Origin: Myxococcales bacterium
Lineage (GTDB): Bacteria; Myxococcota; Myxococcia; Myxococcales; UBA5297
Length of the DNA stretch: 64,000 nucleotides
Assembly (NCBI GenBank): GCA_031552145.1
Contig: JAVBMV010000007.1
Span: 34,486-98,485 of the forward strand
Direction: 5' to 3'
This document shows, piece after piece, positions 1,401 to 53,953 of the stretch (positions are counted from its first letter, which is position 1; each line of letters begins with the position of its first letter). The notes beneath the pieces are model-generated. The model made no database searches. It saw only the letters and a program-made list of their open reading frames with translations, and was not told where the DNA came from. Both the position numbers and the translations under genes were made by a program.

Positions 1401-4400
1401 ATGAACGTGCGATTCCCGAACAGCTTTGCGCTGACTGCTCTCCTCTGTGCCTTGCTCAATGTTGGGTGTGAATCGCCCACATCTCGCCCACTGCAGCGCC
1501 CCCTCATCCTCCTCACTTCGTCGCTTCCCGCCGGAATAATCGCGGCTCCATATCGAGCGACCCTCGCGGCTCGGGGAGGAACGTTCCCATACTCTTGGAC
1601 GGTGACGAATCTTCCGCCGGGGCTAACTGCGGACAGCGCGGGGAGCATCACCGGAGCACCGACCGCCGCGGGGACCTTCGCGGTGGTCGTCGCGGTCGCC
1701 GATGACTCGGCGCCGCCCCGGTCGGCCCAGGTGTCTTTGACGCTGGTGGTCTCACCATCGCCTCTCGCCATATGCACCTCGTCGCTTCCGTCCCGCGCGG
1801 TGGGCGCGGCATATATGGCGACTCTCGAAGCGATAGGGGGAACGCCGCCCTACGTCTGGGCCACGACGGGGCTTCCGCCGGGGCTCGCCGCGGACATCGA
1901 GGGGAGCATCACCGGAATACCGACCTCGGCGGGGACCTTCACGGTGGCCGCCGTGGTCGCCGACGCCTCCCTCCCGATTCAATCGGCCCACGCGTCGTTG
2001 ACGCTGGTGATCTCCCCACCGCCTCTCGTCATCACGACCTCGTCGCTTCCGCCCAAGGCGATCGACGCGACCTACTGGGTGCTGCTCGAAGCGACAGGAG
2101 GAACGCCGCCCTACGTCTGGAGCGCGACGGGGATTCCGCCGGGGCTCTTTGTGAGCAACGCGGGGCACCTCTCTGGAACGCCGACCGCCGCGGGAACCTA
2201 CACGGTAGTGGTCGGTGTCACCGACGCCTCGGTCCCGATCATGAACGCCCAGGCCTCGCTGACACTCGAGGTGCCGAAGTGCGACTTCCCCTCCTATCTG
2301 AGCGGTGCTGTCCTGCGCGCGGTCGCCAACGGCGATGCGACCGTCGTCGCTCAGTCGAACACACTCCTCGACGCCGCCCTCCTCGCGCTTGGGAGCGAGA
2401 CACGTCGGTACAAGCAGGACCTCGCCGCGCTCTTCGGCTGGAATCCAGATGGCACACCCAAACCATCGAGCCTCACCTCCATCGACTGGAATCCTTCCCG
2501 CGACGCCGCCGTGCTCCGCTCCACGCTCGGCGAGAACGCCGCCCTGCTCACGGCGAATACCAACGTGAACGGCTCGACGAACGGCCCCGCGCTCGCGCTC
2601 TTCGGACGCAAGGCGACCGTCCCCTATGCGATCTTCGCGTCCAACCCTTTCCGAACCGAGCGCAACGAACAGATGCAGCAGCTCCTGTTGAACCTCATGG
2701 GCCGGCTCACAGGGGGCAAGGCCGCCCTCCGAATCACCATCGCCGAGCTCGAGGAAAGCACCTACTTCCGCGACGAGAGCGCCACCCGCGCATGGCTCAC
2801 AGCGGCGCTCCCGGACGCGACGTTCAACGCCGCGGACCTGTGCGATGGCTCCGCGCTCGCTGAATGCCTCGCGCGAACCGATCTGCTCATTCTTTCGAAT
2901 AGCAAGCGCGCAGCGGACGACGCCGACCAAATCGTTGCCTCCATCAGAGGCGCAATGAAGAGGGGCGTTCCGGTCGTCTATTTCCACTTCGATGGCGGCG
3001 AGACAGAGCTCAGCCAGAAGCTCTTCGCCGCCTTGGACGTGACCTATGTGGGCGACAACTACTGGCAGAAATACAGGCTCGTGGGCCTCGATCTAGGAAC
3101 AGTGCTCGAGGGTATGTCTCCCGAACAGGCGAAGATCGCGGTCCTCCTCGAGCACCTGCAGAGCGGGCAGTACGACTTCGCGCTCGCCGAGGCACCCGGC
3201 CACCCGAAGTATGTCGAGCAATTCAAGGATGGCGCCGAGGCCGTCCGGAACATGATGCTCGCCTACGATCAGTCGGCGACCGACATCTTCGGGACCTGCG
3301 GCAACTATGTGCCCCGGCTGCTCGCGCTCGCGGGCGATAGGCTCCGGATGGACATTCGATACCCCCTGAAGGTCGAGGGCCCCGGGACAAACCTCCAGAC
3401 CTTCCTGCGCGCCTATTACGCCGATCATGCCGTCCTCAACGTCCGCCGCGTCGCGCCCGCGCAGCCAGATCGGGGATCCTTCGATCCCCGCGATCTCTCC
3501 CAGGTCGTGGCGACCACGCGCATCGTCGACCTGACCAGTCGCGCCGCGTTCCGGTCCACGGGCGCCTACGCACTTCCGGGGCGCCCGATGACCGTCACGC
3601 GGCTCGATAGCGGAGCAGGGCGGGTCTCGGTCTTCGTCAACACTCTGCGAGCGGGCTCCACCCACGAATGGGAGGACACCAATTACGGTGGGTACGCGCG
3701 CCCCAAGTTTCTCCAGAGCGCGCATGTGCCTCTCACTCCGGGGAAGCCCGTCGTCCTGACCAGCGTCTATGGCGGCCCCGTCCAGCTCGAGTTCGATCAG
3801 AACGACGTTCAGGTCCAGGTGAAGTTCCAGAACGTTGGCGAGCACCCCTATTGGACCCATCCGTCCGACGACGCAAAGTTCGAGGCGGCGATCGCCACCA
3901 ATATCTACAACTGGGTCGAGATCGCCACCGAGGGGTTCGAGGTCCACAGCGCGATGTTGCGATATGAAGCGACCGCAAAGGACCCGCGGTGGAATACGCC
4001 GGCGAAACTCACGGCGGCCATTCGGCGCTATACCTACGACGTCACGTTCCGTCTTGCGGGCTACCGGGGCGAGGGCATCACGGAGATCCCGGAGATCGTC
4101 GATTGGGCAAATGGACTGGGGCTGGCCCGGCCGACGCTCGACAAAATGATCCACGGCAATTTCGACCAGCCCCTGTGTGGCGCGGGTTGTTCGGGAAATC
4201 CTTACGACGCGGGCTGGGGGTTCTCGCCGGTCGGGCATGGCGACATCCATGAGTTGGGACATAGCCTCCAGAGCGCGCGGTTCCAGTTGACGCACCACAA
4301 CGGGACCCTCTCCCACGCCAACCATTCCGTCACCAATTGGTGGGCGTTCTACGTCGCCAACACGTGGAACGATGAGAACCCCGAGCTACCTGGCGCGTCC

Positions 4401-5000
4401 ACTTGGGCAGTCAACCACCAGAGCAGCTTCGACGCACTCCAGAGAGCGTTTGTCGAGGCGCCCGGCGAACGCGCCGGCTTCTCCACAGTCATGGACGACT
4501 TCGTCGCGGAGAAGCTCGCGGCGGACGCGGAGGGGGCGCTCGAGTACAACTACACCTTCTTCCAGCAAGCGATGATGGTCGCGAAGCGGCGGGGCGTGTT
4601 GGAGAATGGCTGGCACCTCGTGGCGCGTCTCCACCTTCTGCTGCGCGCGTTCGACGGCGCGCGGGCCAGCGCCGCGGCCTGGGATGCGGCTAAGGAGCGG
4701 CTGGGATTCGGAGATTACTCTCTCGACGAGGCCTCGAAGATTTCAAACAATGACTTCACCGCGATCGCACTCTCCTATGTGAACGGGCTGGATTTCCAAG
4801 ACTTCTTCGATATGTACGGACTCGCCGTCGGCGCCAAGGCGAAGGCGCAGATCCAGGGCTTCTCCTTCCCGGTCGTCGAGCGGGTCTTCTTCGCGCTCGC
4901 CCCTCTGTCGTACCAGCGGGGAGCCATGACGAGCAGGGCGGCGAGCTTTCAGGAGATCCCCATCGACGGGGCGACGCCATGGCCGGCGACGATCCCTTAG
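1401..5000 (+). CDS. Secreted, probably lipoprotein, M60-like/ImpA-family zinc metalloprotease with three N-terminal He_PIG-type Ig repeats
   Basis: 1199-aa ORF. The N-terminus is a hydrophobic leader ending ...LLNVGCES. It has three ~87-aa repeats of the form TSSLP..Y...L.A.GGTPPY.W...G.PPGL......G.I.G.PT.AGTF. The C-terminal region carries the HEXXH motif in ...GDIHELGHSLQ.... Confidence 0.8.
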   Translation: MNVRFPNSFALTALLCALLNVGCESPTSRPLQRPLILLTSSLPAGIIAAPYRATLAARGGTFPYSWTVTNLPPGLTADSAGSITGAPTAAGTFAVVVAVADDSAPPRSAQVSLTLVVSPSPLAICTSSLPSRAVGAAYMATLEAIGGTPPYVWATTGLPPGLAADIEGSITGIPTSAGTFTVAAVVADASLPIQSAHASLTLVISPPPLVITTSSLPPKAIDATYWVLLEATGGTPPYVWSATGIPPGLFVSNAGHLSGTPTAAGTYTVVVGVTDASVPIMNAQASLTLEVPKCDFPSYLSGAVLRAVANGDATVVAQSNTLLDAALLALGSETRRYKQDLAALFGWNPDGTPKPSSLTSIDWNPSRDAAVLRSTLGENAALLTANTNVNGSTNGPALALFGRKATVPYAIFASNPFRTERNEQMQQLLLNLMGRLTGGKAALRITIAELEESTYFRDESATRAWLTAALPDATFNAADLCDGSALAECLARTDLLILSNSKRAADDADQIVASIRGAMKRGVPVVYFHFDGGETELSQKLFAALDVTYVGDNYWQKYRLVGLDLGTVLEGMSPEQAKIAVLLEHLQSGQYDFALAEAPGHPKYVEQFKDGAEAVRNMMLAYDQSATDIFGTCGNYVPRLLALAGDRLRMDIRYPLKVEGPGTNLQTFLRAYYADHAVLNVRRVAPAQPDRGSFDPRDLSQVVATTRIVDLTSRAAFRSTGAYALPGRPMTVTRLDSGAGRVSVFVNTLRAGSTHEWEDTNYGGYARPKFLQSAHVPLTPGKPVVLTSVYGGPVQLEFDQNDVQVQVKFQNVGEHPYWTHPSDDAKFEAAIATNIYNWVEIATEGFEVHSAMLRYEATAKDPRWNTPAKLTAAIRRYTYDVTFRLAGYRGEGITEIPEIVDWANGLGLARPTLDKMIHGNFDQPLCGAGCSGNPYDAGWGFSPVGHGDIHELGHSLQSARFQLTHHNGTLSHANHSVTNWWAFYVANTWNDENPELPGASTWAVNHQSSFDALQRAFVEAPGERAGFSTVMDDFVAEKLAADAEGALEYNYTFFQQAMMVAKRRGVLENGWHLVARLHLLLRAFDGARASAAAWDAAKERLGFGDYSLDEASKISNNDFTAIALSYVNGLDFQDFFDMYGLAVGAKAKAQIQGFSFPVVERVFFALAPLSYQRGAMTSRAASFQEIPIDGATPWPATIP
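1515..2280 (+). repeat. Three in-frame tandem copies (period 261 bp) encoding the Ig-like repeats of the metalloprotease
   Basis: The repeat units start at 1515, 1776 and 2037, each at the codons for TSSLP. Nucleotide blocks such as acctcgtcgcttcc and ggaacgccgccctacgtctgg recur between units. Confidence 0.8.
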
Positions 5001-10097: not shown

Positions 10098-10769
10098 AAG
10101 CAGGTCTACGAGGCAGTCTCTCGAGGGGTATACCGCCTCGTGTCGCTCGAGCCGCTCGCACACCCGGACCTCGTCACGGTGGCGAAGCGCGTCCCGCAGG
10201 GTGTGCTCTGTCTCATCTCGACGCTCTCGTTCCATGAACTGACGACGCAGGTGCCGCACATGACCGACATCGCGCTCGAGAACCTCGAGCGCGTTATCCG
10301 CGAGGTGTGCGCCGCCGATGTAGAGGCCGACGGCATGGAGTTCGATCCGGCCACAGTGAAGACCGAGCGCATCAAGGAGGACGCAGACTACGAGGGCGTG
10401 CGTGTCCGATTCGTCGGCCTGCTCGGCAAGGCGCGCGTCGCGATGCAGATCGATGTCGGGTTCGGCGATGTCATCACGCCGGGCGCGCAGGACATCACCT
10501 ATCCGGTGCTGCTCGACTTCCTCGCGCCCGCGCTCTCGGGATACCCCCGCGAGACTGTTGTCGCCGAGAAGTTTCAGGCGATGGTCTACCTGAGCACGCT
10601 GAACAGCCGCATGAAGGACTTCTACGACGTGTGGCTGCTCGCGAGGCAGTTCGCTTTTGATGGCGCACTGCTCGCAAAGGCCATCGCCGCCACCTTCGCA
10701 AACCGCGAGACCGCGATCGACGTCGCGCCGATCGCGTTCACCCCGAAGTTCACCGAGCAGCGTCTATAG
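10098..10769 (+). pseudogene. AbiEi antitoxin fragment fused in frame to the C-terminal part of an AbiEii/AbiGii nucleotidyltransferase toxin (deletion remnant)
   Basis: The reading frame gives ...RGVYRLVSLEPLAHPDLVTVAKRVPQGVLCLISTLSFHELTTQVPH (AbiEi-like). It runs directly into ...DGMEFDPATVKTERIKEDADYEGVRVRFVGLLGKARVAMQIDVGFGDVITPG...YPRETVVAEKFQAMVYLSTLNSRMKDFYDVWLL (AbiEii-like). The AbiEi N-terminal wHTH and the AbiEii N-terminal NTase motif are missing. Confidence 0.6.
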
Positions 10770-17895: not shown

Positions 17896-18111
17896 GAGGG
17901 CGCCTCCGCGCGTCTTCACGACCTCGATCCCGAGACCTACCTGCGAGATATCTTCCGCGTCTTGGCTCATTGGCCGAAGGACCGTTGCCTCGAACTCGCC
18001 CCCAAGTACTGGGCCGCTACCCGCGCTTGTCTCGACCACGACCAGCTCGCCAACGAGTACGGGCCGCTCTCGATCCCGGCGCCGCTCCTCGGTGCGCAAA
18101 CCGCCTCGTAA
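17896..18111 (+). pseudogene. IS66-family transposase, C-terminal remnant only
   Basis: My own translation gives ...GASARLHDLDPETYLRDIFRVLAHWPKDRCLELAPKYWAATRACL...PLLGAQTAS*. This matches the conserved IS66 C-terminal motif (L.g.dP..YLrdv...i..hp..r..eL.P..W). No upstream DDE domain is present. Confidence 0.6.
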
Positions 18112-18172
18112 CGCGCGGCGCAGCAGCGCCTGCCGTGCGGCTCGGAAGTGGACCTCTGTGCAGGGTGCGGGG
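18079..18172. repeat. Left copy of a 94-bp inverted repeat (IS66 3'-end sequence); partner at 22857-22950
   Basis: By my manual alignment, the reverse complement of 18079-18172 matches 22857-22950 at 88/94 positions. Confidence 0.85.
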
Positions 18173-18585: not shown

Positions 18586-18630
18586 AGTCAGGGAGACAGG
18601 ATTTGAACCAGCGACCCCTTGGACCCGAAC
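18586..18630 (-). repeat. Displaced 3' fragment of tRNA-Pro; island-distal att direct repeat
   Basis: agtcagggagacaggatttgaaccagcgaccccttggacccgaac matches 24197-24241 at 43/45 positions. That span covers the 3' 43 nt of the intact tRNA-Pro. Confidence 0.85.
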
Positions 18631-19306: not shown

Positions 19307-20878
19307 ATGTCTGCTCTGCCTGCTAGTACTATCCAGTCTTCCCGGGATTCGAGAACGACAGTAAACGAATTTCGTTCAAATCTGTTAGTGATTGGGATGG
19401 TGGGTCCAATTGGAGCAGGCGTGACAACGACCGCGCAGGCCCTAAAGACGAGGCTGAGCAATCCGGAAATTGCCCCCGACTTTAAATTTGATGTTCAAGT
19501 CATCAAGGCGAGCGATTGTATAAGGGAGTGGGCGGGCGATATTGGCGATGACAATATGGGATCGGTGGAGCGTCGGATGCGGTTTCAGGCGCTCGGGAAT
19601 AAGATGCGTTCTAAGGACCCTGCTGCCTTGGCCGCTCGTTTGTTTCTGAGAATTCATGAGCCAATAGAGACGGCGCCAAGACGAGCGTACATTCTGGATT
19701 CTCTGAAGAACCCAATAGAGATAAATTTCCTTAGAACAATATTTGGCAGTTCCTTTTTTGTTGTCGGCGTCATGTGTGCCTCCGAGCGCATTGTAGAGCG
19801 ATTGAGCGCAAAGTTTGGCGAAGAGGAAAGAAAGCGAAAGGGCGGAAAGATCGTAAGTCGAGCGTCGATAGAAGAGCTGTGTGAGCGGGACGTAAAACCA
19901 CAAGATCCTAAGGCCAAGCATTCGCAGAGGATGGCAGATGCGTTGGAGTTATCCGACTATTTTATTGACAACTCCGTTGAGCATCAACCGAGAAACAGTC
20001 TGGGGCTCATAGCAGGTGCCGAGCTTGATCGGTTCTGCTCAATAATCAGAAACGAAGACATTAGACGCCCAACGGAATCAGAAAGCGCGATGCATGCAGC
20101 ATATTCCGCGAAACACCGTAGCTCCTGTCTGTCAAGACAGGTTGGAGCCGCGCTCATAAACTCAGATGGCGATATTGTTGCCACAGGGACGAACGAGGCC
20201 CCCTGTTCGACGGGCGGCGTGTATCGAGAGGGGCGAAATTGTTGCGTCAAAAACAAGTTTGGGAGGTGCTTCGAGCGAGGTGAGGGGCAATGTCAAAGCG
20301 AAAAAATGCGAGGTGAGATTATAAATGAAGCAATAGCAGGGCTCGAGCTACCAGAAGGCAGCTCGGTGGACGCCATTAAAACGGTGTTGAATGACAGTGG
20401 AATCAAAGCTCTTACGGAGTTTGGCAGGGCTGTTCATGCCGAAATGGATGCGGTGCTTTGCGCTGCTAGGCTAGGGGTTAAGACCGGCGGAACTCGCATG
20501 TATGTCACCACATTCCCATGCCATACCTGTGCTCGCCATATCGTTGCAGCTGGTGTTTGGGAGGTTCAGTACATTGAGCCGTATTCGAAAAGCAAAGCAT
20601 TGGAGCTTCACAGTGATGCAATTGTGTGTGGGTTAGATCGCCCAGCAGATCGAAAACAGGTGCTGTTTAGGCCATTTTCCGGTGTTGCTCCTAGGTTTTA
20701 CGAGCGCGCTTTCGCGTTGCAGGCTGGCATTAAAGACGAGTCCGGATATTACAAAATCCAAGAACCCGAATGGGGAGAGAAGTGGAACTCTTTGCTCAAT
20801 GTTGACCTTCCAACATTGCGCGATGAAATCGGAAGGTCTCTAAGGGGTTGCCAGGAAGAAGAGTCGAGGGAGTCATGA
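19307..20878 (+). CDS. P-loop-kinase-like / deoxycytidylate (CDA-fold) deaminase fusion, anti-phage dCTP deaminase (DcdV/DCD) type
   Basis: The N-terminus has the Gly-rich loop LLVIGMVGPIGAGVTTTA. The C-terminus has ...SSCLSRQVGAALINSDGDIVATGTNE..., the zinc ligand motifs ...RAVHAEMDAV... (HAE) and ...TTFPCHTCARHIV... (PCxxC). GC is low, about 45-50% by eye. Confidence 0.85.
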   Translation: MSALPASTIQSSRDSRTTVNEFRSNLLVIGMVGPIGAGVTTTAQALKTRLSNPEIAPDFKFDVQVIKASDCIREWAGDIGDDNMGSVERRMRFQALGNKMRSKDPAALAARLFLRIHEPIETAPRRAYILDSLKNPIEINFLRTIFGSSFFVVGVMCASERIVERLSAKFGEEERKRKGGKIVSRASIEELCERDVKPQDPKAKHSQRMADALELSDYFIDNSVEHQPRNSLGLIAGAELDRFCSIIRNEDIRRPTESESAMHAAYSAKHRSSCLSRQVGAALINSDGDIVATGTNEAPCSTGGVYREGRNCCVKNKFGRCFERGEGQCQSEKMRGEIINEAIAGLELPEGSSVDAIKTVLNDSGIKALTEFGRAVHAEMDAVLCAARLGVKTGGTRMYVTTFPCHTCARHIVAAGVWEVQYIEPYSKSKALELHSDAIVCGLDRPADRKQVLFRPFSGVAPRFYERAFALQAGIKDESGYYKIQEPEWGEKWNSLLNVDLPTLRDEIGRSLRGCQEEESRES

Positions 20879-21795
20879 GCCGGTCTCGAACAATATTTGA
20901 ACTGATTAATGGAGAAGGCGGGGTGAATCGTGAAGGCAAGAATACGATTCATTGCAAGCCTAGCCTTTTGGAGGAACGCGACGGCCTGGAAGTATCAGGG
21001 TCTTGTGTAGATGACTCGTCCTTCACGCTCCCCACTCCTGAGTCTGAGTCGCTGAGGAACAGTTCCCGTTCGCCATTTCCGAGGACCTCCGAAGTCACAT
21101 TGTCAGAGAAGGCCGCATGGTGCTCAGGGGGGGGGCTAAAAGCGCCGGAAGAATGCCCCTGGTCCAATGACCTCGTGACAATAGCCTCGGTGTCCGTGGA
21201 CGGCAATAGCCTACCTCCGCGATTTGGCAAAGACCTAAGTTTGGATCGCGCTTTGCCGCCAGGTGTTACAATGCTTCCTGTGCCTGCTCTAGCTCAACCA
21301 AAAGTTGCTCCTGAATTGAGGCAGGGGCATTTATTTCCTGAGTATTTTATAAACCGGGCGTGGGTTGTGTTTGCTCCCAGTATGCGTGGGCATGACATTT
21401 TTAGCCTGTTCGAGCGTGACGAGACTGCTCATGTGTTTGACGTTAGGGTGCTTCGACGATTTGATTTTGCTCCTTGGCGGAGGGAAAACTGGGAGAAGAT
21501 TTCCGAGGATTTCAAAATTAAATACTACGGCGTTGTGGGCAGAGAAAAGGCCCGCGATTGGAACGACCGATGGCTCCTGTCTCAAGAAGCAAGGGGGCTC
21601 TTGTCGAAATTGTTGAGCGATGTGAAGACAGCGCGATCTGTTGTGTTTTTGGTGGACGACCGCTATGACTTCAGGATTGCGAGGCTTCTTCTTCCCGGCG
21701 CGCTGCCTCCGCCCCCTCCTTTGTGCAGATGGGAGGTCCTGTCAGTTGAATCGCCCGAGGATTTGGAGCGCACCATGTCCTTGTATTTGCGATGA
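20875..21795 (+). CDS. Uncharacterised protein translationally coupled to the deaminase (S/P/E-rich N-terminal half plus a ~170-aa C-terminal domain)
   Basis: The ATG at 20875 overlaps the deaminase TGA (gtcATGAgc). An alternative TTG at 20848 would give a 31-nt overlap. The C-terminal domain reads ...FINRAWVVFAPSMRGHDIFSLFERDETAHVFDVRVLRRFDFAPWRRENWEKISEDFKIKYYGVVGREKARDW... I do not recognise a family. Confidence 0.6.
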   Translation: MSRSRTIFELINGEGGVNREGKNTIHCKPSLLEERDGLEVSGSCVDDSSFTLPTPESESLRNSSRSPFPRTSEVTLSEKAAWCSGGGLKAPEECPWSNDLVTIASVSVDGNSLPPRFGKDLSLDRALPPGVTMLPVPALAQPKVAPELRQGHLFPEYFINRAWVVFAPSMRGHDIFSLFERDETAHVFDVRVLRRFDFAPWRRENWEKISEDFKIKYYGVVGREKARDWNDRWLLSQEARGLLSKLLSDVKTARSVVFLVDDRYDFRIARLLLPGALPPPPPLCRWEVLSVESPEDLERTMSLYLR

Positions 21796-22024: not shown

Positions 22025-22684
22025 TCACGCAAATGTGTCGCATGTGGGGCAGTAGAAGTTCCCTCGATGTTTTGTCTTTAGCGGTGTTTTGCTCATTGGG
22101 CCACAGCAGTTGCTGCATCGGGGAGGCGGCAAATATCTGGACGTAAGGTTTCCGTCGTACGGCTTTGTATTTTCGCCTGCTTGTTTTGATGGGGCGGGCC
22201 CCTTCAGTAACGACGGAAGGATTTCGAGAAATTCATCACGTCGTTCGCTCCAACGCGCAGTGGGAAGCGGCTTCGGAACCGGCAGGCGCTCAGTGATAGC
22301 GTAGTGGAGGTCATCAAGACCACTGTTCGTCTCGATCTTTAATGCTTGCATGCCTGCGAGCACCGCTTTCATATTCGAATAACTTACTGGAGGAACGATT
22401 ACGGGGATGAAATCTTTCGATGCAAACCAGGCGCCCCCAAGCTCGCACATGCAGAATGGGCTTTGGTAAAAGTCGTCAGACACGAGTGCGAGGACGAGCG
22501 TGGAGTCCCCCAGAGTCTCCTTGATGTACGACTTGAAGTCCTTGCCCGGCGGGATCCCCTGTCCTTTCGTAGACGAGCAAAATATTTCGCTCGGGGGGAC
22601 GCCAATTCCGCCTTCCAGCAACTTGGTGAATTCGGTCACGAGACGTTTGTCTTCCGACGCGTGACTGATGAAGAGCTTCGCCAT
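22025..22684 (-). CDS. TIR-domain protein with a C-terminal CxxC...CxxC zinc ribbon
   Basis: The ATG at 22684 is preceded by AGGAGG and gives MAKLFISHASEDKRLV... ...DDFYQSPFCMCELGGAW... contains the conserved TIR Glu. The C-terminus reads ...RCSNCCGPMSK...FYCPTCDTFA. An extended -10 (TGATATGAT) lies at 22717-22725 on the minus strand. Confidence 0.8.
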   Translation of the reverse strand: MAKLFISHASEDKRLVTEFTKLLEGGIGVPPSEIFCSSTKGQGIPPGKDFKSYIKETLGDSTLVLALVSDDFYQSPFCMCELGGAWFASKDFIPVIVPPVSYSNMKAVLAGMQALKIETNSGLDDLHYAITERLPVPKPLPTARWSERRDEFLEILPSLLKGPAPSKQAGENTKPYDGNLTSRYLPPPRCSNCCGPMSKTPLKTKHRGNFYCPTCDTFA

Positions 22685-22856
22685 GTGGTCCTCCTGCAAT
22701 GAACGTTGGTCGCTCGATCATATCAGAACTAGGCAGCGCTTCGGGTCGGAATCGCACAGGGTACGCTCCTTGACCTGCCCCCAGGAAGAAGGTCCGTTGA
22801 AAATGTGAGAGACTGGGCTCCTAGAGGAGCCTGAGATGAAGAAGAGTCTGACCTGC

Positions 22857-22950
22857 CCCCGCACCCTGCACAGAGGTCCACCTTCGAGCCGCACGGCAGG
22901 CGCTGCTGCGCCGCGCGCTACGAGGCAATTTGCGCGCCGAGGAGCGGCGC
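22857..22950. repeat. Right copy of the 94-bp inverted repeat (IS66 3' end: last ~10 codons ...APLLGAQIAS* on the minus strand plus downstream sequence)
   Basis: Matches the reverse complement of 18079-18172 at 88/94 positions. Confidence 0.85.
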
Positions 22951-23041: not shown

Positions 23042-24082
23042 TTACGGCTCCTCCTCCCTCTTCTTGGGGCGCTTCGACTCGATGCGCTTCACCTCAGCCT
23101 CGAAGTCGCTCTCGAACTCACGGTCCTGGCGCACGCGAAACTTGTCGTACTGCTCCTCGGCGAGGCGCTTGGCCACCTCCGCGGAGACCTTGCCGGCGTT
23201 CACGAGCACCTCGTACTCGTTGAACTGCAGGAACGCGTCCAGCTTCGCGACCCAGTTCGCCATCTTCATCGGGATCTGCCGCGCGGCCTGGTTCTCGGCG
23301 TAGTCGAGGTACATCGACACGATGCGCTCGAGCCCCTTGATCTCGCGCTCGATCAGGTAGTTCTTGGCGACGCTGACGTCGCTCTTGAGGATCTTCCCCT
23401 TGGGTGCGTTCTTCCACGTTGTGAGCCCCATCGAGGGCTTCTCGGCGTCAGCGCGCTCGGCGATCAGCTCCGCGGCGGTCTTGCCCGTGACCGCCCAGTG
23501 CAGCTTGTTCTGCACCGTCTTGAAGAACGTCTGCGTCGTCTCGGCCTGCTTGTCGTAGTCGACGCTGCACTGCTCGTAGATGTCGGTGATCTTCAGGTAG
23601 AACCGCCGCTCGCTGGCGCGGATCTCCCGGATCCGCTCGAGCAACTCGTCAAAGTAGTCCCTGCCGAAGCGCTTGTTCAGCTTGAGCCGCTCGTCGTCGA
23701 GGACGTAGCCCTTGACGATGAACTCGCGCAGTGTCTGGGTCGCCCATATGCGGAACTGGGTGGCCTGCGTGCTGTTGACGCGGTAGCCAACCGAGATGAT
23801 CGCGTCGAGATTGTAGAACTCGATCTCGCGCCTAACATCGCGATTTCCCTCGCGTTGAACCCTCCAAATTCTTTGGAGAGTTGCCTCCGGGTTCAGCTCC
23901 CCCGAGGCGTAGACCTCCTTCAGATGGTAGCTGACGGTGCGGATGTCGACGCCGAACAGCTCGGCCATGCGCCGCTGGTCGAGCCAGAAGGTCTCGGACT
24001 CGTAGAGCACCTCGACGCGCACGGCGTCATCGGCGGTGCGGTAGAGGATCAGCTCGCCTTCCTGCGAGGTCTGGTCGGTCAT
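23042..24082 (-). CDS. RhuM-family (virulence/Fic-related) protein
   Basis: The internal ATG at 24082 gives MTDQTSQEGELILYRTADDAVRVEVLYESETFWLDQRRMAELFGVDIRTVSYHLKEVY...NLDAIISVGYRVNSTQATQFRIWATQTLREFIVKGYVLDDERLK.... The longer track ORF reads through the tRNA and is not real. Confidence 0.85.
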   Translation of the reverse strand: MTDQTSQEGELILYRTADDAVRVEVLYESETFWLDQRRMAELFGVDIRTVSYHLKEVYASGELNPEATLQRIWRVQREGNRDVRREIEFYNLDAIISVGYRVNSTQATQFRIWATQTLREFIVKGYVLDDERLKLNKRFGRDYFDELLERIREIRASERRFYLKITDIYEQCSVDYDKQAETTQTFFKTVQNKLHWAVTGKTAAELIAERADAEKPSMGLTTWKNAPKGKILKSDVSVAKNYLIEREIKGLERIVSMYLDYAENQAARQIPMKMANWVAKLDAFLQFNEYEVLVNAGKVSAEVAKRLAEEQYDKFRVRQDREFESDFEAEVKRIESKRPKKREEEP

Positions 24083-24196: not shown

Positions 24197-24241
24197 AGTC
24201 GGGGAGACAGGATTTGAACCTGCGACCCCTTGGACCCGAAC
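24197..24241 (-). repeat. tRNA-proximal att direct repeat (within tRNA-Pro)
   Basis: Identical to 18586-18630 at 43/45 positions. Confidence 0.85.
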
Positions 24242-24272
24242 CAAGTGCTCTACCAGGCTGAGCCACTCCCCG
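24199..24272 (-). tRNA. tRNA-Pro (anticodon CGG), CCA not encoded
   Basis: The reverse complement folds as a cloverleaf: CGGGGAG-TG-GCTC-AGCCTGGTA-GAGC-A-CTTGG-TTCGGGT-CCAAG-GGGTC-GCAGG-TTCAAAT-CCTGT-CTCCCCG-A. Anticodon-loop positions 34-36 are CGG. Confidence 0.9.
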
Positions 24273-36531: not shown

Positions 36532-38328
36532 ATGGCGATTCCCATTACGGCCGCCTCGCGTCCTTGCTTCTTGGTGAGGCAGGTGCAGAATCGGCTGTCG
36601 ATACAATCCGCTCCACAGAAAGAGGAAGAGGCCGTGACTCTCGCTTCCCTAATCTCGGATGGGGAGACACTCACCGTCGAGTTCAAGAGCGACGTCAATG
36701 ATACGGAGCTGGTCGAGACCGTCGTCTGCCTTGCCAACGGCGGTGGCGGCACGTTGCTCGTGGGTGTGCATGACGATGGGCGCGTCGTAGGGGTGCGACC
36801 TCGCCACGGCAAAACAACCGATCCGCGGCGAGTCGAAGCGCTCGTGTCCAACTCCACACGTCCCTCCCTCGCGGTCCGGGCCGAGATCGAACAGCACGAG
36901 GAGCACCTGATACTCGTGGTGCGTGTACCAAGGTCCTGCATCCCAGCTGCCACATCCACCGGCCGCTATCTGCGCCGTACATTGGGCGGAGATGGCAAGC
37001 CTGCTTGTGTCCCGTTCTTCATCTACGAGACGGGGCACGTCCTCGCCCAGGACCCTTCTGCGGCGGTCGTTCCGGGCGCGACATGGAAGGATCTCGATCC
37101 CATTGAGATCGAGCGCTTTCGGCGCCTCGCCCGCGAAGGCGGTGGTCGTGGAGATGCTTCGCTGCTCCACCTCTCGGACGAGGAGCTATGCCGTGCGCTC
37201 GGAGGCGTCGAGCCACGACCCGATGGAGCGCCCGGCATTCGTCGTGTGGCGCTCCTCCTGTTCGGTCGCGAAGAGTCACTCAGGACACTTCTGCCCACCC
37301 ATGAAGTCGCGTGGCAGGTCTTGGAGAGACACGCCGTCCTCGAAAACGAGATCTACCGCCTGCCGCTCCTGCGCTGCTTCGAGTTGCTCATCGAGAAATT
37401 TCGTGCCCACAATCGCTCGTCGGAGCTCGTCGATCTCTTCCGCACTGAAGTGCCCGACTTCTCCGAGGAGTCGTTCCGTGAGGCGCTCGCCAACGCGCTC
37501 ACCCATCGCGACTACACCGCTCTCGGCGCAGTGCATACTCAGTGGAGCGACGAGGGTATCGTTCTCTCGAGCCCCGGTGCTCTCCCCGAGGGTGTCCGCG
37601 TCGACAACCTGCTCTCGACTCCACCAAGGCCGCGCAACCCGACGCTGGCCGATGCCTTCAAGCGCGCGGGCATCGTCGAGCGTACTGGCCGCGGTGTCGA
37701 CACCATCTACTACGGTCAACTCCGCTACGGTCGTCCGCTGCCCCGCTATGATGTTACGAGCGCTTCGGTCTCGGTCACCTTACCCGGAAGCTCGGCCAAC
37801 CTCGCGTTCGTACGTTGGCTCGTCAGCGAAGGCCGTGCGGGACGGAACTGGCCGCTGCCCGATCTCCTCTCCTTGCGTGCGATCGCGGAGGCACGCAGCC
37901 TGAACGCCGAGGCCACCGCCGTCGTACTCCAAACCGATACCGATCGCGCTCGCAGTGTCCTTGCGCGGCTGGTCGATGCCGGCATCGTCGAAGCGCGCGG
38001 CGCGGGACGCGGTCGCGCATACCACCTGTCGGCGGCCATGTATCGGGTGCTCGATGATCGCGCGGGCTATGTCCGCGTTCGCGGCTTCGAGCCTGCGCAG
38101 CAGGAGCAGATGGTCCTCCAATACGCCCAAGAGCACGGTCAGATAACGCGACGGGAGGCAACCGAGCTGTGCAAGCTCTCGGCCGATCAGGCGAGTCGAC
38201 TGCTTCGACGCCTCGCGAGCGAGCACTCCGAATTACACCTCGAAGGTGAACGACGTGGTGCACGCTATGTCTGGCATGGCCCTCGACGAACTCCACGGAG
38301 AGCTACTCCGGGGAGGGGGAAGAAATAG
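36532..38328 (+). CDS. AlbA_2 (Schlafen-like) / HATPase_c_4 / C-terminal wHTH protein ('RecG-like' putative regulator); an alternative GTG start at 36634 has a better RBS
   Basis: ...LISDGETLTVEFKSDVNDTELVETVVCLANGGGGTLLVGVHDDGRVVGV... (AlbA_2), ...REALANALTHRDY... and ...RTGRGVDTIY... (HATPase_c_4-like). Confidence 0.75.
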   Translation: MAIPITAASRPCFLVRQVQNRLSIQSAPQKEEEAVTLASLISDGETLTVEFKSDVNDTELVETVVCLANGGGGTLLVGVHDDGRVVGVRPRHGKTTDPRRVEALVSNSTRPSLAVRAEIEQHEEHLILVVRVPRSCIPAATSTGRYLRRTLGGDGKPACVPFFIYETGHVLAQDPSAAVVPGATWKDLDPIEIERFRRLAREGGGRGDASLLHLSDEELCRALGGVEPRPDGAPGIRRVALLLFGREESLRTLLPTHEVAWQVLERHAVLENEIYRLPLLRCFELLIEKFRAHNRSSELVDLFRTEVPDFSEESFREALANALTHRDYTALGAVHTQWSDEGIVLSSPGALPEGVRVDNLLSTPPRPRNPTLADAFKRAGIVERTGRGVDTIYYGQLRYGRPLPRYDVTSASVSVTLPGSSANLAFVRWLVSEGRAGRNWPLPDLLSLRAIAEARSLNAEATAVVLQTDTDRARSVLARLVDAGIVEARGAGRGRAYHLSAAMYRVLDDRAGYVRVRGFEPAQQEQMVLQYAQEHGQITRREATELCKLSADQASRLLRRLASEHSELHLEGERRGARYVWHGPRRTPRRATPGRGKK

Positions 38329-52768: not shown

Positions 52769-53953
52769 TTGGACCTGTCTCTGAACATTGAAAGACTCTT
52801 GACCGGCCTCGAGTCCGATCGGGTCGAGCGAACGATCGGTACAGACAAGACGAGCAAGTTCGCGAAGGCAATCTGTGCTTTCGCCAATGACTATCCCAAC
52901 CATCGACAACCGGGATACCTCGTCATTGGCGCCAACGACGACGGCTCCATCGCGGGACTAGAAGTAACAGAGCAATTACTCCAATCGTTGGCGGCGATAC
53001 GCTCGGATGGGCATGTCCTCCCTCCCCCCGCGATGTCGATCCACAGGGTTTCGCTCCCAGGGGGCGACCTGGCGGTCGTCGAGGTTCAACCGTCGTTAGC
53101 ACCTCCAGTCCGCTATCGCGGAAGAGTCTGGATACGGATCGGAGCGCGGCGCGCCGTCGCCAATGAGCAAGAAGAGCACATTCTCTCGGAGCGGCGCTCC
53201 TTCAACTCCGCTTCCTTCGATGCGACACCCGTCCAGGGGGCGGTCCTCAGCAATCTGAGCATGCGCCATTTCGAAGACTATCGAGCCCTCACCGTCGACC
53301 CGGAAATTATCGCGGCCAACCATCGAACCGTCGAGGAGTGTCTCGCATCTCTCAGGTGCTACGACCTGGTGAACCACCTTCCGACGGTCGCTGGTATCCT
53401 ATTATTTGGCAACAATCCCAGGCACTTCCTTCCCTGTGCGTATGTCCAGTTCCTGAAGTTCCCAGGGACAGCAGCGAGCGATACGCCCGAAGACCAGCTC
53501 GAGATCGACGGTGATCTTCGGTTCGTCGTCGAGACTCTGCGCGGCAAAATACTGGCATACAACAAGATCCCGCTGATACAGGGTGAACAGCTGCGAGAGC
53601 GCTCGATTCCCGATTATCCCGAGTGGGCGGTGCGAGAGCTACTCCACAATGCGCTGATGCATCGAGATTACCGGGCACAAGCACCCGTACGTTTCTATTG
53701 GTACGCCGACCGAATCGAGATCCAGAGCCCCGGTGGGCTCTATGGAAATGTGACACCAACGACCATGACGCGGCGCAGCGCCTACCGAAACCCCACCATC
53801 GCCGAGGCAATGAAGGCGATGGATTACGTCAACCGATATGGCTACGGAATTCAGCGCGCCTTGGCCCTGCTCGAGGCGAACGGCAACCCCAAGCCCGAAT
53901 ATGAGATCGACGAGGCAGAGGTCCGGGTGACGCTCCGGCCGCGTCCCCGATGA
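52769..53953 (+). CDS. AlbA_2 / HATPase_c_4 ATP-binding protein (second paralogue)
   Basis: A TTG start follows GAGAGGAG. The protein contains ...ESDRVERT...KAICAFANDYPNHRQPGYLVIGANDDGSIAGL..., ...RELLHNALMHRDY... and ...RYGYGIQRA.... Confidence 0.75.
   Translation: MDLSLNIERLLTGLESDRVERTIGTDKTSKFAKAICAFANDYPNHRQPGYLVIGANDDGSIAGLEVTEQLLQSLAAIRSDGHVLPPPAMSIHRVSLPGGDLAVVEVQPSLAPPVRYRGRVWIRIGARRAVANEQEEHILSERRSFNSASFDATPVQGAVLSNLSMRHFEDYRALTVDPEIIAANHRTVEECLASLRCYDLVNHLPTVAGILLFGNNPRHFLPCAYVQFLKFPGTAASDTPEDQLEIDGDLRFVVETLRGKILAYNKIPLIQGEQLRERSIPDYPEWAVRELLHNALMHRDYRAQAPVRFYWYADRIEIQSPGGLYGNVTPTTMTRRSAYRNPTIAEAMKAMDYVNRYGYGIQRALALLEANGNPKPEYEIDEAEVRVTLRPRPR

What the first reader, a model, noticed from the sequence alone, without database searches (positions are those of the whole stretch)
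22025..22725. Stand-alone TIR-domain protein fused to a C-terminal zinc ribbon, convergent with the deaminase pair
This 219-aa protein has an N-terminal TIR domain (KLFISHASEDK). The conserved Glu context (SPFCMCELGGAW) suggests NADase competence. A short linker leads to a CxxC-N17-CxxC zinc ribbon (RCSNCCGP...FYCPTCDTFA).

Known bacterial TIR defence systems (Thoeris, TIR-STING, TIR-SAVED, TIR-pAgo and others) pair TIR with a recognisable sensor or effector partner. Here the only extra module is the tiny zinc ribbon, and no ThsA-like gene is nearby. The gene has its own extended -10 promoter (TGATATGAT) and a strong RBS. It sits 230 bp tail-to-tail with the deaminase operon in the same low-GC island. 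It may be an independent minimal TIR defence gene or a third component of the island system.
Basis: partly seen in the sequence, partly recalled or inferred. Interest (0 to 1): 0.65.

Follow-up and report, generated by a model that had tools for sequence, protein, structure and literature searches.

The report
SpbK-like TIR NADase with zinc-ribbon tail
A real 219-residue gene encodes an NAD-cleaving TIR immune domain of the same clade as the Bacillus anti-phage protein SpbK. In place of the usual sensor domain it carries a small, orphan four-cysteine tail, so it is an unusual variant of a known kind of one-gene phage defence, not a new kind of system.

Summary
Window 22025-22684 (-) encodes a 219-aa protein with an N-terminal TIR domain (Pfam 4.9e-11; PADLOC spbK model 2.8e-30). 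Its nearest solved structure is B. subtilis SpbK. E81 aligns with SpbK's catalytic E192, and E81/G83/W86 are invariant in 150 family representatives.

The tail CSNC-N18-CPTC is present. Chance gives about 1e-3 per 55 aa. AlphaFold2 folds it at pLDDT 71-79 once mis-aligned homologues are removed.

The tail is an orphan: no search found a relative. Normal relatives are about 345 aa, with the TIR domain followed by a coiled coil and an unrelated C-terminal domain. Four-cysteine C-terminal tails do recur in five sequence-distinct groups of this TIR clade.

Homologues have no conserved partner gene and never sit beside a deaminase, so the "third component" idea is not supported. The premise that TIR defences always need a partner is outdated: SpbK and E. 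coli TIR-V/VI/IX are single proteins.

The gene lies in a 5.6-kb integrase-less islet at tRNA-Pro, with an anti-phage dCTP deaminase and a RhuM gene.

Best reading: a stand-alone abortive-infection NADase whose zinc ribbon recruits it to a multivalent phage ligand. It could also be a truncated derivative. Verdict: new variant of a known kind, modest interest.

The parts
22025..22684 (-). CDS of the 219-aa TIR-zinc-ribbon protein (ATG at 22684, TGA stop at 22025-22027)
   Evidence: ORF list and sequence. The identical protein with the same neighbours occurs on two Logan contigs that are 100% identical to the window.
22190..22684 (-). SpbK-clade TIR domain, aa 1-165, including an extra C-terminal helix (aa 142-160) like SpbK alphaF. 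The catalytic-position Glu E81 is encoded at 22442-22444.
   Evidence: Pfam TIR_2 4.9e-11. PADLOC spbK 2.8e-30, model positions 149-304 of 308. phmmer against PDB: SpbK 9phb 2.9e-14. AF2 pLDDT about 80-95. Foldseek top hit 9phb_A, TM 0.77 normalised to the target. E81, G83 and W86 are invariant in 150 representatives.
22124..22189 (-). Pro/Ser/Lys-rich linker, aa 166-187, predicted disordered. This is where similarity to all homologues ends.
   Evidence: pLDDT <50 for 166-182. tblastn and phmmer alignments of homologues stop at aa 153-191.
22028..22123 (-). C-terminal 4-Cys zinc-ribbon-like module, aa 188-219 (C190, C193, C194 ... C212, C215), with a basic loop KTPLKTKHR
   Evidence: Sequence. 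Chance about 1e-3. AF2 pLDDT 71-79 with short beta strands when the tail is modelled without mis-aligned rows. No relatives found.
22690..22695 (-). Shine-Dalgarno AGGAGG, 5 nt upstream of the ATG
   Evidence: Read from the sequence
22717..22725 (-). Extended -10-like element TGATATGAT, with no -35 hexamer. A consensus match only.
   Evidence: Read from the sequence. The two-hexamer scan found no promoter.
18586..18630 (.). Distal copy of the 45-nt direct repeat (3' part of tRNA-Pro): far boundary of the 5.6-kb islet
   Evidence: the repeat finder family D1, 96% identity between the copies
24198..24272 (-). tRNA-Pro(CGG), the insertion site. Its 3' part (24197-24241) is the proximal repeat copy.
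   Evidence: ARAGORN, Rfam tRNA 64 bits, repeat
19307..20878 (+). Neighbour, not part of the TIR unit: anti-phage dCTP deaminase, convergent with the TIR gene
   Evidence: PADLOC dCTPase 1.5e-139. NCBIfam antiphage_deaminase 3.1e-112, 375.6 bits, just under the 400-bit cut-off.
20875..21795 (+). Neighbour: 306-aa ORF that overlaps the deaminase stop by 4 nt. No family match.
   Evidence: Gene calls on L001/L002. No Pfam, PADLOC or NCBIfam hit.
23042..24082 (-). Neighbour: RhuM-family gene (PADLOC candidate system PDC-S05), same strand as and upstream of the TIR gene. GC3 is 0.93, against 0.65 for the TIR domain part of the CDS (aa 1-165).
   Evidence: Pfam Virulence_RhuM 6.7e-114, PDC-S05 2e-156, GC3

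Best explanation
The gene is a self-contained, single-gene anti-phage NADase of the SpbK type.

Shown:
- Residues 1-165 are a TIR domain of the SpbK clade.
- The catalytic-position Glu (E81) is present, and the alphaC 'E-x-G-x-x-W' face that forms the inter-strand interface in SpbK filaments is conserved.
- A disordered linker of about 22 residues follows, then a 32-residue four-cysteine module.
- The gene has its own ribosome-binding site and sits in a tRNA-Pro islet of defence genes.

Inferred:
- As in SpbK, the enzyme is inactive until several TIR domains are brought together head-to-tail, which builds the composite active site.
- The zinc ribbon replaces the larger sensor region of its relatives. 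It tethers the protein to a multivalent infection-specific ligand, either a repetitive phage assembly or nucleic acid (the inter-knuckle loop is basic).
- Clustering then switches on NAD+ cleavage to ADP-ribose, possibly with cyclic ADPR, and NAD+ depletion aborts the infection.
- It acts independently of the neighbouring dCTP deaminase pair.
For: TIR identity and SpbK affinity.

Residue mapping on the alignment, using SpbK residue roles from PMC12847820: E81=E192 (catalytic), G83=G194 and W86=W197 (CC interface), I44=I155, S10=S122. E81, G83 and W86 are invariant in 150 representatives.

Confident TIR fold plus an extra alphaF-like helix.

Modular family: the same TIR occurs with many different N- or C-terminal regions, as expected for a fixed effector with swappable sensors.

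The zinc ribbon is not random. Chance is about 1e-3. AF2 gives pLDDT 71-79. Four-Cys C-terminal tails occur in 8 of 258 clade proteins falling into 5 unrelated-looking groups; in the first set of 150 representatives, 3 were observed against 0.095 expected from shuffles.

Independence: there is no recurrent neighbour in 18 homologue loci, none of the window's neighbours appears in 25 loci, and the gene is convergent with the deaminase operon with its own SD.

Defence context: dCTP deaminase and RhuM/PDC-S05 lie in the same 5.6-kb tRNA-Pro islet. Scattered defence genes lie near homologues. Single-protein TIR defences are experimentally established (PMC12847820, PMC11350192).
Against: Nothing here is experimental: no NADase, zinc or phage data exist for this protein or for any member of its immediate (about 345-aa) family.

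The tail is a singleton with no relatives in any collection searched, so selection on it cannot be shown.

Its codon-position GC pattern (GC1 0.41, GC2 0.57, GC3 0.54) differs from the TIR part (0.56, 0.43, 0.65), though only 54 codons are involved.

With the untrimmed alignment, AF2 left the tail at pLDDT <50. No Pfam zinc-ribbon model matches.

SpbK D158, a key BE-interface residue, aligns with G47 here, so the assembly details may differ.

The ligand is unknown, and defence-island association of the homologues is only moderate; many neighbours are housekeeping genes.
Confidence: 0.45

Rival explanations
1. It is a truncated or rearranged derivative of the normal ~345-aa family member. A deletion or recombination after helix alphaF removed the coiled coil and C-terminal domain, and the reading frame now runs into unrelated DNA. 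The product is either inactive or a bare TIR domain, and the Cys pattern has no function.
For: All close relatives (40-61% identity) are 340-360 aa, and similarity stops abruptly at aa ~165. The tail has no relative anywhere. The tail's codon-position GC is atypical. The islet is mosaic, lacks an integrase and is bracketed by a 94-nt inverted repeat, which suggests rearrangement. ZnR-less truncated siblings exist in another TIR-ZnR group: P0163-P0166 against P0141.
Against: No remnant of the family's C-terminal domain is left in any frame of the window. A CxxC-N18-CxxC at the extreme C-terminus arises by chance in only about 1 in 1000 such tails. AF2 folds it with pLDDT 71-79. Similar tails recur in the clade well above expectation. 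The gene keeps an intact start, a strong SD and all invariant TIR residues.
Confidence: 0.22
2. It is a signal-generating TIR, Thoeris ThsB-like. On infection it makes a cADPR-type or related nucleotide that activates an effector encoded elsewhere in the genome, rather than killing by NAD+ depletion.
For: TIR enzymes can act either way, and SpbK itself makes N1-cADPR of unknown role (PMC12847820). There are weak ThsB-model hits at E 0.004-0.011.
Against: No ThsA-like gene (SIR2-SLOG, Macro-TM or caspase-like) is in the islet. No recurrent partner lies next to homologues; known Thoeris pairs are operonic. ThsB hits are far weaker than the spbK hit.
Confidence: 0.1
3. It is one component of a multi-gene island system, working with the dCTP deaminase pair (19307-21795) and/or RhuM (23042-24082).
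For: The genes are physically adjacent within one 5.6-kb islet. The TIR gene, the deaminase pair and the HTH gene are all bracketed by the same 94-nt inverted repeat. The same arrangement is seen on two metagenome contigs, but these are 100% identical to the window and so are not independent.
Against: No relative of the deaminase, the 306-aa ORF, RhuM or the HTH gene is found in 25 loci carrying TIR homologues. The TIR gene is convergent with the deaminase operon and 357 bp from RhuM, with its own SD. GC3 values differ between the genes (0.51, 0.55, 0.65, 0.93), pointing to separate origins. The anti-phage dCTP deaminase has its own PADLOC and NCBIfam models; that it works as a single-gene system is from my own knowledge and was not tested here.
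Confidence: 0.08
4. It is not anti-phage. It is an NADase toxin or effector used in interbacterial competition, or it has another NAD-related role.
For: One homologue lies just downstream of a VgrG (Phage_GPD/Gp5) gene cluster. Bacterial TIR NADases also act as virulence effectors; TcpB/BtpA appear among the Foldseek hits.
Against: There is no secretion or PAAR/MIX-type delivery domain, and the TIR starts at residue 3. No conserved adjacent immunity gene is seen. The VgrG association occurs at one homologue locus only, seen on two overlapping contigs. The nearest characterised relative is a defence protein.
Confidence: 0.06

Closest known systems
SpbK (YddK) of Bacillus subtilis ICEBs1, a single-gene TIR NADase abortive-infection system triggered by the SPbeta portal protein YonE (PMC12847820, PMC8880864)
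   Same: It is the best match by profile (PADLOC spbK 2.8e-30), by sequence against PDB (2.9e-14) and by fold (9phb_A, target-normalised TM 0.77, 28% identity). The catalytic Glu and the G/W residues of the alphaC interface are conserved, and there is an extra helix after the TIR core. Both are single genes carried on an integrated element, with no partner gene.
   Different: The domain order is reversed: here the TIR is N-terminal, while SpbK has an N-terminal helical portal-binding domain and a C-terminal TIR. The match covers only the TIR half of the spbK model (positions 149-304 of 308). SpbK's N-terminal domain is absent, and a 32-aa four-Cys module on a flexible linker stands in its place. 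BE-interface residue D158 aligns with Gly. The trigger is unknown.
The uncharacterised ~345-aa 'N-terminal SpbK-like TIR + coiled coil + FWDxHL C-terminal domain' family, annotated only as 'TIR domain-containing protein' (e.g. Paraburkholderia xenovorans P0005, Anaeromyxobacter sp. PSR-1 L006)
   Same: 40-61% identity over aa 1-165. The TIR is N-terminal in both. They are stand-alone genes in variable regions, spread across many phyla.
   Different: The window protein lacks the whole ~190-aa coiled-coil and C-terminal region. It has an unrelated 54-aa tail instead, and no remnant of the missing domain is found in the window.
[quoted passage not shown] 2024, PMC11350192)
   Same: Short single-protein TIR systems with no recognisable second domain, shown experimentally to protect against phages in a manner dependent on the TIR active site.
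   Different: No zinc-ribbon module is described for them.
SPARTA TIR-APAZ (short pAgo systems) and Thoeris ThsB
   Same: SPARTA TIR domains are the next-best structural matches (Foldseek ranks 2-13). There are weak ThsB profile hits.
   Different: There is no APAZ domain, no pAgo gene and no ThsA effector in the islet. These are similarities at the level of the TIR fold only.

Membership tests
TIR-domain NADases (Pfam TIR_2 / enzymatic TIR superfamily) | Significant match to a TIR profile and a TIR fold | tested here: met
   Pfam TIR_2 43.6 bits against a cut-off of 28. AF2 pLDDT 80-95 over aa 1-165. 38 PDB TIR structures at Foldseek E<=1e-3.
TIR-domain NADases (Pfam TIR_2 / enzymatic TIR superfamily) | Catalytic glutamate in helix alphaC | tested here: met
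   E81 aligns with SpbK E192 (residue role from PMC12847820). It is invariant in 150/150 representatives.
TIR-domain NADases (Pfam TIR_2 / enzymatic TIR superfamily) | NAD+ cleavage activity | not testable with these tools
   Needs a biochemical assay.
SpbK system (PADLOC spbK) | TIR domain of the SpbK clade | tested here: met
   spbK is by far the best PADLOC model (2.8e-30; the next is 1e-3). SpbK is the best PDB hit by sequence and by fold.
SpbK system (PADLOC spbK) | N-terminal helical domain that binds the phage portal clip, followed by a C-terminal TIR (full-length match) | tested here: not met
   Only model positions 149-304 of 308 are matched. The TIR begins at residue 3, and no N-terminal domain exists.
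SpbK system (PADLOC spbK) | Single-gene system on a mobile or integrated element | tested here: met
   The islet is flanked by 45-nt tRNA-Pro repeats. Homologues have no conserved partner gene.
SpbK system (PADLOC spbK) | Activation by phage portal protein, and abortive infection | not testable with these tools
   Needs phage genetics.
Thoeris (ThsB + ThsA) | TIR gene in an operon with a ThsA-type effector (SIR2-SLOG, Macro-TM, caspase-like) | tested here: not met
   The islet genes are an HTH_17 gene, a 115-aa ORF, the dCTP deaminase, a 306-aa ORF with no match, and RhuM. Homologue loci show no recurrent effector. ThsB hits are only E 0.004-0.011.
SPARTA / short pAgo TIR-APAZ | APAZ domain fused to the TIR, and an adjacent short pAgo gene | tested here: not met
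   The protein ends 54 aa after the TIR. No pAgo-like gene is in the islet.
Anti-phage dCTP deaminase system, with the TIR as a third component | Co-occurrence of TIR homologues with the deaminase and/or its 306-aa partner | tested here: not met
   tblastn of the deaminase, ORF306, RhuM, HTH17 and ORF115 against 25 homologue loci gave no hit at E<=1e-3.
Zinc ribbon (rubredoxin-like two-knuckle fold) | Two CxxC knuckles 10-25 residues apart on beta hairpins | tested here: met
   C190-x2-C193 ... C212-P-T-C215. AF2 gives short strands at 189, 196-199, 210-212 and 217-218 with pLDDT 71-79.
Zinc ribbon (rubredoxin-like two-knuckle fold) | Significant match to a curated zinc-ribbon family, or conservation of the Cys ligands in orthologues | tested here: not met
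   The best Pfam hit is Auto_anti-p27 at E=0.6. No orthologue of the tail exists in the collections searched.
Zinc ribbon (rubredoxin-like two-knuckle fold) | Zinc binding | not testable with these tools
   Needs metal analysis.

The most novel reading that the evidence does not exclude
The 32-residue zinc ribbon is a complete, minimal infection sensor. If so, this 219-aa protein would be among the smallest self-contained sensor-effector TIR immune proteins known. Zinc-ribbon tails, acquired independently at least five times in the SpbK-like TIR clade, would then be a recurrent way of coupling TIR clustering to a multivalent phage ligand, possibly nucleic acid. Nucleic-acid-templated TIR assembly has been shown for some plant TIRs but, according to PMC12847820, not yet for any bacterial TIR system.
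Probability: 0.25. Interest if true: 0.55.

Novelty: new variant of a known kind. Interest (0 to 1): 0.3.

Why it matters
If the tail is functional, this protein would be a very compact model for how TIR NADases are switched on by clustering: a 165-aa enzyme, a flexible tether and a 32-aa metal-bound hook. It could be dissected by mutagenesis, and its ligand could be fished out.

The work also shows that the SpbK-type TIR is a widely distributed effector. It has 137 representatives at E<=1e-30 and about 2,200 at E<=1e-10, across many bacterial phyla and in one Asgard-archaeon (Promethearchaeota) MAG. It is attached to many different, mostly uncharacterised sensor regions, which offers a ready catalogue for finding new phage triggers.

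Otherwise it is one more TIR defence gene in a small defence islet.

Tried and rejected
- **Frameshifted or decayed 345-aa gene.** tblastn of 14 homologues against the whole window found only the TIR part and no trace of the C-terminal domain in any frame.
- **Relatives of the tail.** The word-index search with the 68-aa tail found nothing. Six back-translated tail peptides scanned over 241 M JGI metagenome records gave 600 pattern matches, none confirmed. In the exhaustive phmmer search, no alignment passes query residue 191.
- **Viral origin.** A viral-contig scan with the family patterns found nothing. Only four weak TIR-only hits (29-36% identity) appear in GenBank phages.
- **Pfam on the tail alone.** Only non-significant zinc-ribbon-like hits.
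- **First AF2 run with full-length homologues.** The tail stayed at pLDDT <50. I attribute this to homologues' unrelated C-termini being force-aligned to the tail, and the trimmed alignment changed the result. Because it depends on the alignment, the support is moderate only.
- **Profile of the family's usual C-terminal domain against PDB.** Only coiled-coil noise, and Pfam and PADLOC find nothing in it, so what the zinc ribbon replaces remains uncharacterised.
- **Two-hexamer sigma-70 promoter and minus-strand terminator scans.** Nothing for this gene.
- **Rfam on 17.5-24.5 kb.** Only the tRNA.
- **Host identification through cluster look-up.** Uninformative.
- **Integrase.** No integrase-family match among the ORFs scanned, either inside the islet or in the adjacent 8.4-18.6 kb.
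Full report
**1. Observation**

The minus strand of window 22025-22684 carries an intact 219-codon ORF. It starts at an ATG preceded by AGGAGG (22690-22695) with a 5-nt spacer. TGATATGAT lies at 22717-22725. It ends with TGA at 22025-22027.

The Cys pattern is C190-S-N-C193-C194 ... C212-P-T-C215. That makes 18 residues between the two CxxC knuckles, or 17 if counted from C194.

The stop codon is 229 bp from the stop of the convergent 306/315-aa ORF at 21795. The 19-23 kb region is 51-56% GC against 62-73% around it. A two-hexamer sigma-70 scan found nothing. The proposed promoter is therefore only an extended -10 consensus match without a -35.

**2. The TIR domain**

- Pfam TIR_2 matches aa 5-118 (E=4.9e-11, 43.6 bits, cut-off 28).
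- In PADLOC the best model by 27 orders of magnitude is spbK (E=2.8e-30). Only model positions 149-304 of 308 are matched, which is SpbK's C-terminal TIR half.
- No NCBIfam family reaches its cut-off.
- Against all PDB sequences the only significant hit is SpbK, 9phb (E=2.9e-14).
- AlphaFold2 gives a confident TIR fold for aa 1-165 plus an extra helix at 142-160.
- Foldseek ranks the SpbK filament subunit first (9phb_A, E=5e-8, target-normalised TM 0.77, 28% identity), followed by SPARTA TIR-APAZ chains. The SpbK paper likewise reports that SPARTA is SpbK's nearest structural neighbour, and that SpbK has an additional alphaF helix (PMC12847820).

I mapped the alignment onto the residue roles given in that paper:

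| Window residue | SpbK residue | Role in SpbK |
|---|---|---|
| E81 | E192 | catalytic Glu |
| G83 | G194 | alphaC 'CC' inter-strand interface, required for NADase activity and defence |
| W86 | W197 | alphaC 'CC' inter-strand interface, required for NADase activity and defence |
| I44 | I155 | predicted NAD+ pocket |
| S10 | S122 | predicted NAD+ pocket |
| G47 | D158 | BE interface (not conserved here) |

E81, G83 and W86 are the only invariant columns across 150 family representatives.

**3. The family**

An exhaustive phmmer search of 1.84 billion representatives gave 5,124 hits at E<=1e-3, 2,200 at E<=1e-10 and 137 at E<=1e-30.

The closest relatives share 40-61% identity over aa 1-165. 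They are almost all 340-360 aa: an N-terminal TIR, a coiled coil, and a conserved C-terminal domain ending in FWDxHL. That C-terminal region has no Pfam, PADLOC or PDB relative.

These proteins occur in Myxococcota (Anaeromyxobacter sp. PSR-1, 60%), Paraburkholderia, Acidobacteriota, Planctomycetia, Bacteroidota (Hymenobacter), Melainabacteria, Babeliaceae, Actinomycetota and one Promethearchaeota MAG. They also occur on Agrobacterium, Mesorhizobium and Priestia plasmids. Everywhere they are annotated only as 'TIR domain-containing protein'.

Other clade members carry the same TIR behind an N-terminal extension, as SpbK does, or in front of quite different C-terminal regions of 250-350 aa. Some consist of the TIR alone, at 158-190 aa. 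This is the pattern of a constant effector joined to interchangeable sensors.

**4. The tail**

Similarity to every homologue stops at aa ~153-191. The 54-aa tail of the window protein has no relative by any of three searches:

- the word-index search;
- a scan of JGI metagenomes with six back-translated tail peptides;
- the exhaustive search.

The protein is a singleton cluster. It was otherwise seen only on two Logan contigs that are 100% identical to the window. No remnant of the usual C-terminal domain survives in any frame of the window, so this is a replacement or deletion and not a simple frameshift.

Is the Cys motif meaningful?

For:
- CxxC-N(10-25)-CxxC occurs in 0.08% of random stop-free 55-mers of island composition, and at 0.12% per 55 aa in the window's own six-frame stretches.
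- When the alignment is trimmed so that nothing is force-aligned to the tail, AF2 predicts a small beta-rich module for aa ~188-219 with pLDDT 71-79. It leaves aa 166-182 disordered.
- Four-Cys motifs at or near the C-terminus recur in this clade. There are 3 among the 150 best representatives (window, P0033, P0141), against 0.095 expected from within-protein shuffles; none of 2,000 shuffles reached 3.
- A further 5 occur among 108 additional members (P0161, P0162, P0210, P0241, P0261). Together these make five sequence-distinct groups. The cysteines are conserved between P0141, P0161 and P0162 at about 80% identity.

Against:
- The first AF2 run, with the untrimmed alignment, left the tail at pLDDT <50.
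- No curated zinc-ribbon model matches.
- The tail's codon-position GC (0.41, 0.57, 0.54) is unlike that of the TIR part (0.56, 0.43, 0.65), though on only 54 codons.
- In the P0141 group, siblings P0163-P0166 end before the zinc ribbon, so such tails are gained or lost easily.

My reading is that the zinc ribbon is probably real, but this is not proven.

**5. Surroundings**

A tRNA-Pro(CGG) gene lies at 24198-24272 (-). The 45 nt at its 3' end are repeated at 18586-18630 with 96% identity. These repeats delimit a 5.6-kb islet containing:

- an HTH_17 (excisionase/AlpA-like) gene and a 115-aa ORF;
- an anti-phage dCTP deaminase (PADLOC dCTPase 1.5e-139; NCBIfam 375.6 bits against a cut-off of 400);
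- a translationally overlapping 306-aa ORF with no family;
- the TIR gene;
- a RhuM-family gene (PADLOC candidate PDC-S05, 2e-156).

No integrase-family match appeared among the ORFs scanned, either in the islet or in the adjacent 8.4-18.6 kb. That adjacent region holds an AbiEii toxin gene and metabolic genes.

GC3 differs sharply between the islet genes, so the islet is a mosaic:

| Gene | GC3 |
|---|---|
| dCTP deaminase | 0.51 |
| 315-aa ORF | 0.55 |
| TIR domain part of the CDS (aa 1-165) | 0.65 |
| RhuM | 0.93 |

**6. Independent gene or third component?**

Relatives of the window's deaminase, ORF306, RhuM, HTH17 and ORF115 were searched by tblastn in 25 loci that carry TIR homologues. 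None was found.

I scanned 124 neighbouring ORFs from 18 loci. No PADLOC family occurred more than once, and no Pfam family more than twice. Scattered defence or conflict genes were present:

- PDC-S28, NsnA, PD-T4-2, a second TIR protein, a DinG-type helicase, GmrSD;
- PIN-TPR-GreABC (twice), SLATT and a resolvase.

Ordinary housekeeping genes were also present.

The family therefore behaves as a single-gene unit with a moderate association with variable or defence regions. It has no link to deaminases.

**7. Mechanism**

For SpbK, the following is established (PMC12847820):

- The TIR is inactive as a dimer.
- The active site forms only between head-to-tail TIR neighbours.
- The non-TIR domain binds the dodecameric portal, which concentrates the TIRs.
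- NAD+ is then cleaved to ADPR and N1-cADPR, and the infected cell stops growing.

By homology of the catalytic domain and conservation of the Glu and the alphaC interface, I infer the same logic here. The zinc ribbon on its flexible linker would be the recruiting module. Its ligand would be multivalent, either a phage assembly or nucleic acid (the inter-knuckle loop KTPLKTKHR is basic).

What is shown is the domain identity, the conserved residues and the architecture. Enzymatic activity, the clustering requirement, the role of the tail and the outcome for the cell are all inferred.

I put the whole statement at about 0.45. NADase-competent TIR stands at about 0.75, independent defence gene at about 0.6, and tail-as-sensor at about 0.35.

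The main rival (0.22) is that the gene is a truncated derivative whose tail is accidental. Lesser rivals are a Thoeris-like signal producer with an unlinked effector (0.10), a component of the island system (0.08) and a non-defence NADase toxin (0.06).

**8. Comparison and novelty**

The protein works like SpbK but is not an SpbK orthologue. It fails the full-length, N-terminal-sensor criterion, and its domain order is reversed. It fails the defining partner-gene criteria for Thoeris and SPARTA.

Single-protein TIR defences are already experimentally established. [quoted passage not shown] Being 'stand-alone' is therefore not in itself novel.

What is new is small. It is an orphan zinc-ribbon tail on an SpbK-clade TIR, within an uncharacterised but sizeable family, plus the observation that such tails recur in the clade. 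I rate it a new variant of a known kind, with interest 0.3.

Noticed in passing
window 18079-18172 and 22857-22950: A 94-nt inverted repeat, 94% complementary, with only these two copies in the window. It brackets the distal tRNA-Pro repeat copy, the HTH_17 gene, the dCTP deaminase pair and the TIR gene, but excludes RhuM and the intact tRNA. The two Logan contigs identical to the window break at or next to the arms (18115 and 22819). It may be an invertible or once-inverted cassette, or a duplicated junction. ORFs over the arms have no Pfam hit.
   Followed up: partly
window 18586-18630 / 24197-24241, tRNA-Pro 24198-24272: A 45-nt direct repeat of the tRNA-Pro 3' end delimits a 5.6-kb defence islet. 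It has an excisionase-like HTH_17 gene but no integrase-family match, and GC3 ranges from 0.51 to 0.93 between its genes, so it is a mosaic and probably immobile remnant.
   Followed up: partly
window 19307-20878 and 20875-21795: The anti-phage dCTP deaminase is followed by a 306-aa ORF that overlaps its stop by 4 nt and has no Pfam, PADLOC or NCBIfam match. This may be an uncharacterised partner of a system that, from my own knowledge (not tested here), normally works as a single gene. The deaminase scores 375.6 bits against the NCBIfam equivalog cut-off of 400.
   Followed up: no
window 10140-10769: An AbiEii nucleotidyltransferase toxin gene (Pfam 2.3e-31; PADLOC AbiEii 8e-63) lies in the 56-60% GC stretch next to the islet. 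The cognate AbiEi was not looked for.
   Followed up: no
window 36532-38328 and 52769-53953: Two paralogous ORFs, 30% identical over 183 aa, with lower GC3 than their surroundings. They are probably the two window proteins that hit Schlafen/AlbA_2, HATPase_c_4 and the PADLOC model Aga_SIR2-PNTD1-PNTD2 (1.7e-19). The assignment of those hits to these ORFs is inferred from the paralogy only.
   Followed up: partly
window, location not determined: Strong PADLOC hits to PDC-S37 (9.4e-153) and Hhe (3e-86) come from ORFs somewhere in the window outside the islet. The window also holds ParB, GidB and DnaN, so it lies near the chromosomal origin.
   Followed up: no
L025 (GCA_024449685.1 contig), 1953-2780 and 4022-4759: The other short TIR-zinc-ribbon protein, P0033 (245 aa), sits 1.2 kb downstream of a second, different TIR-domain gene (275 aa) and near a resolvase gene.
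   Followed up: no
L015 (Promethearchaeota MAG, JAFGOA010000093.1) 2344-3390: A full-length 348-aa member of the bacterial N-terminal SpbK-like TIR family (42% identity) lies on a contig binned to an Asgard archaeon. This is either horizontal transfer or a binning artefact.
   Followed up: no
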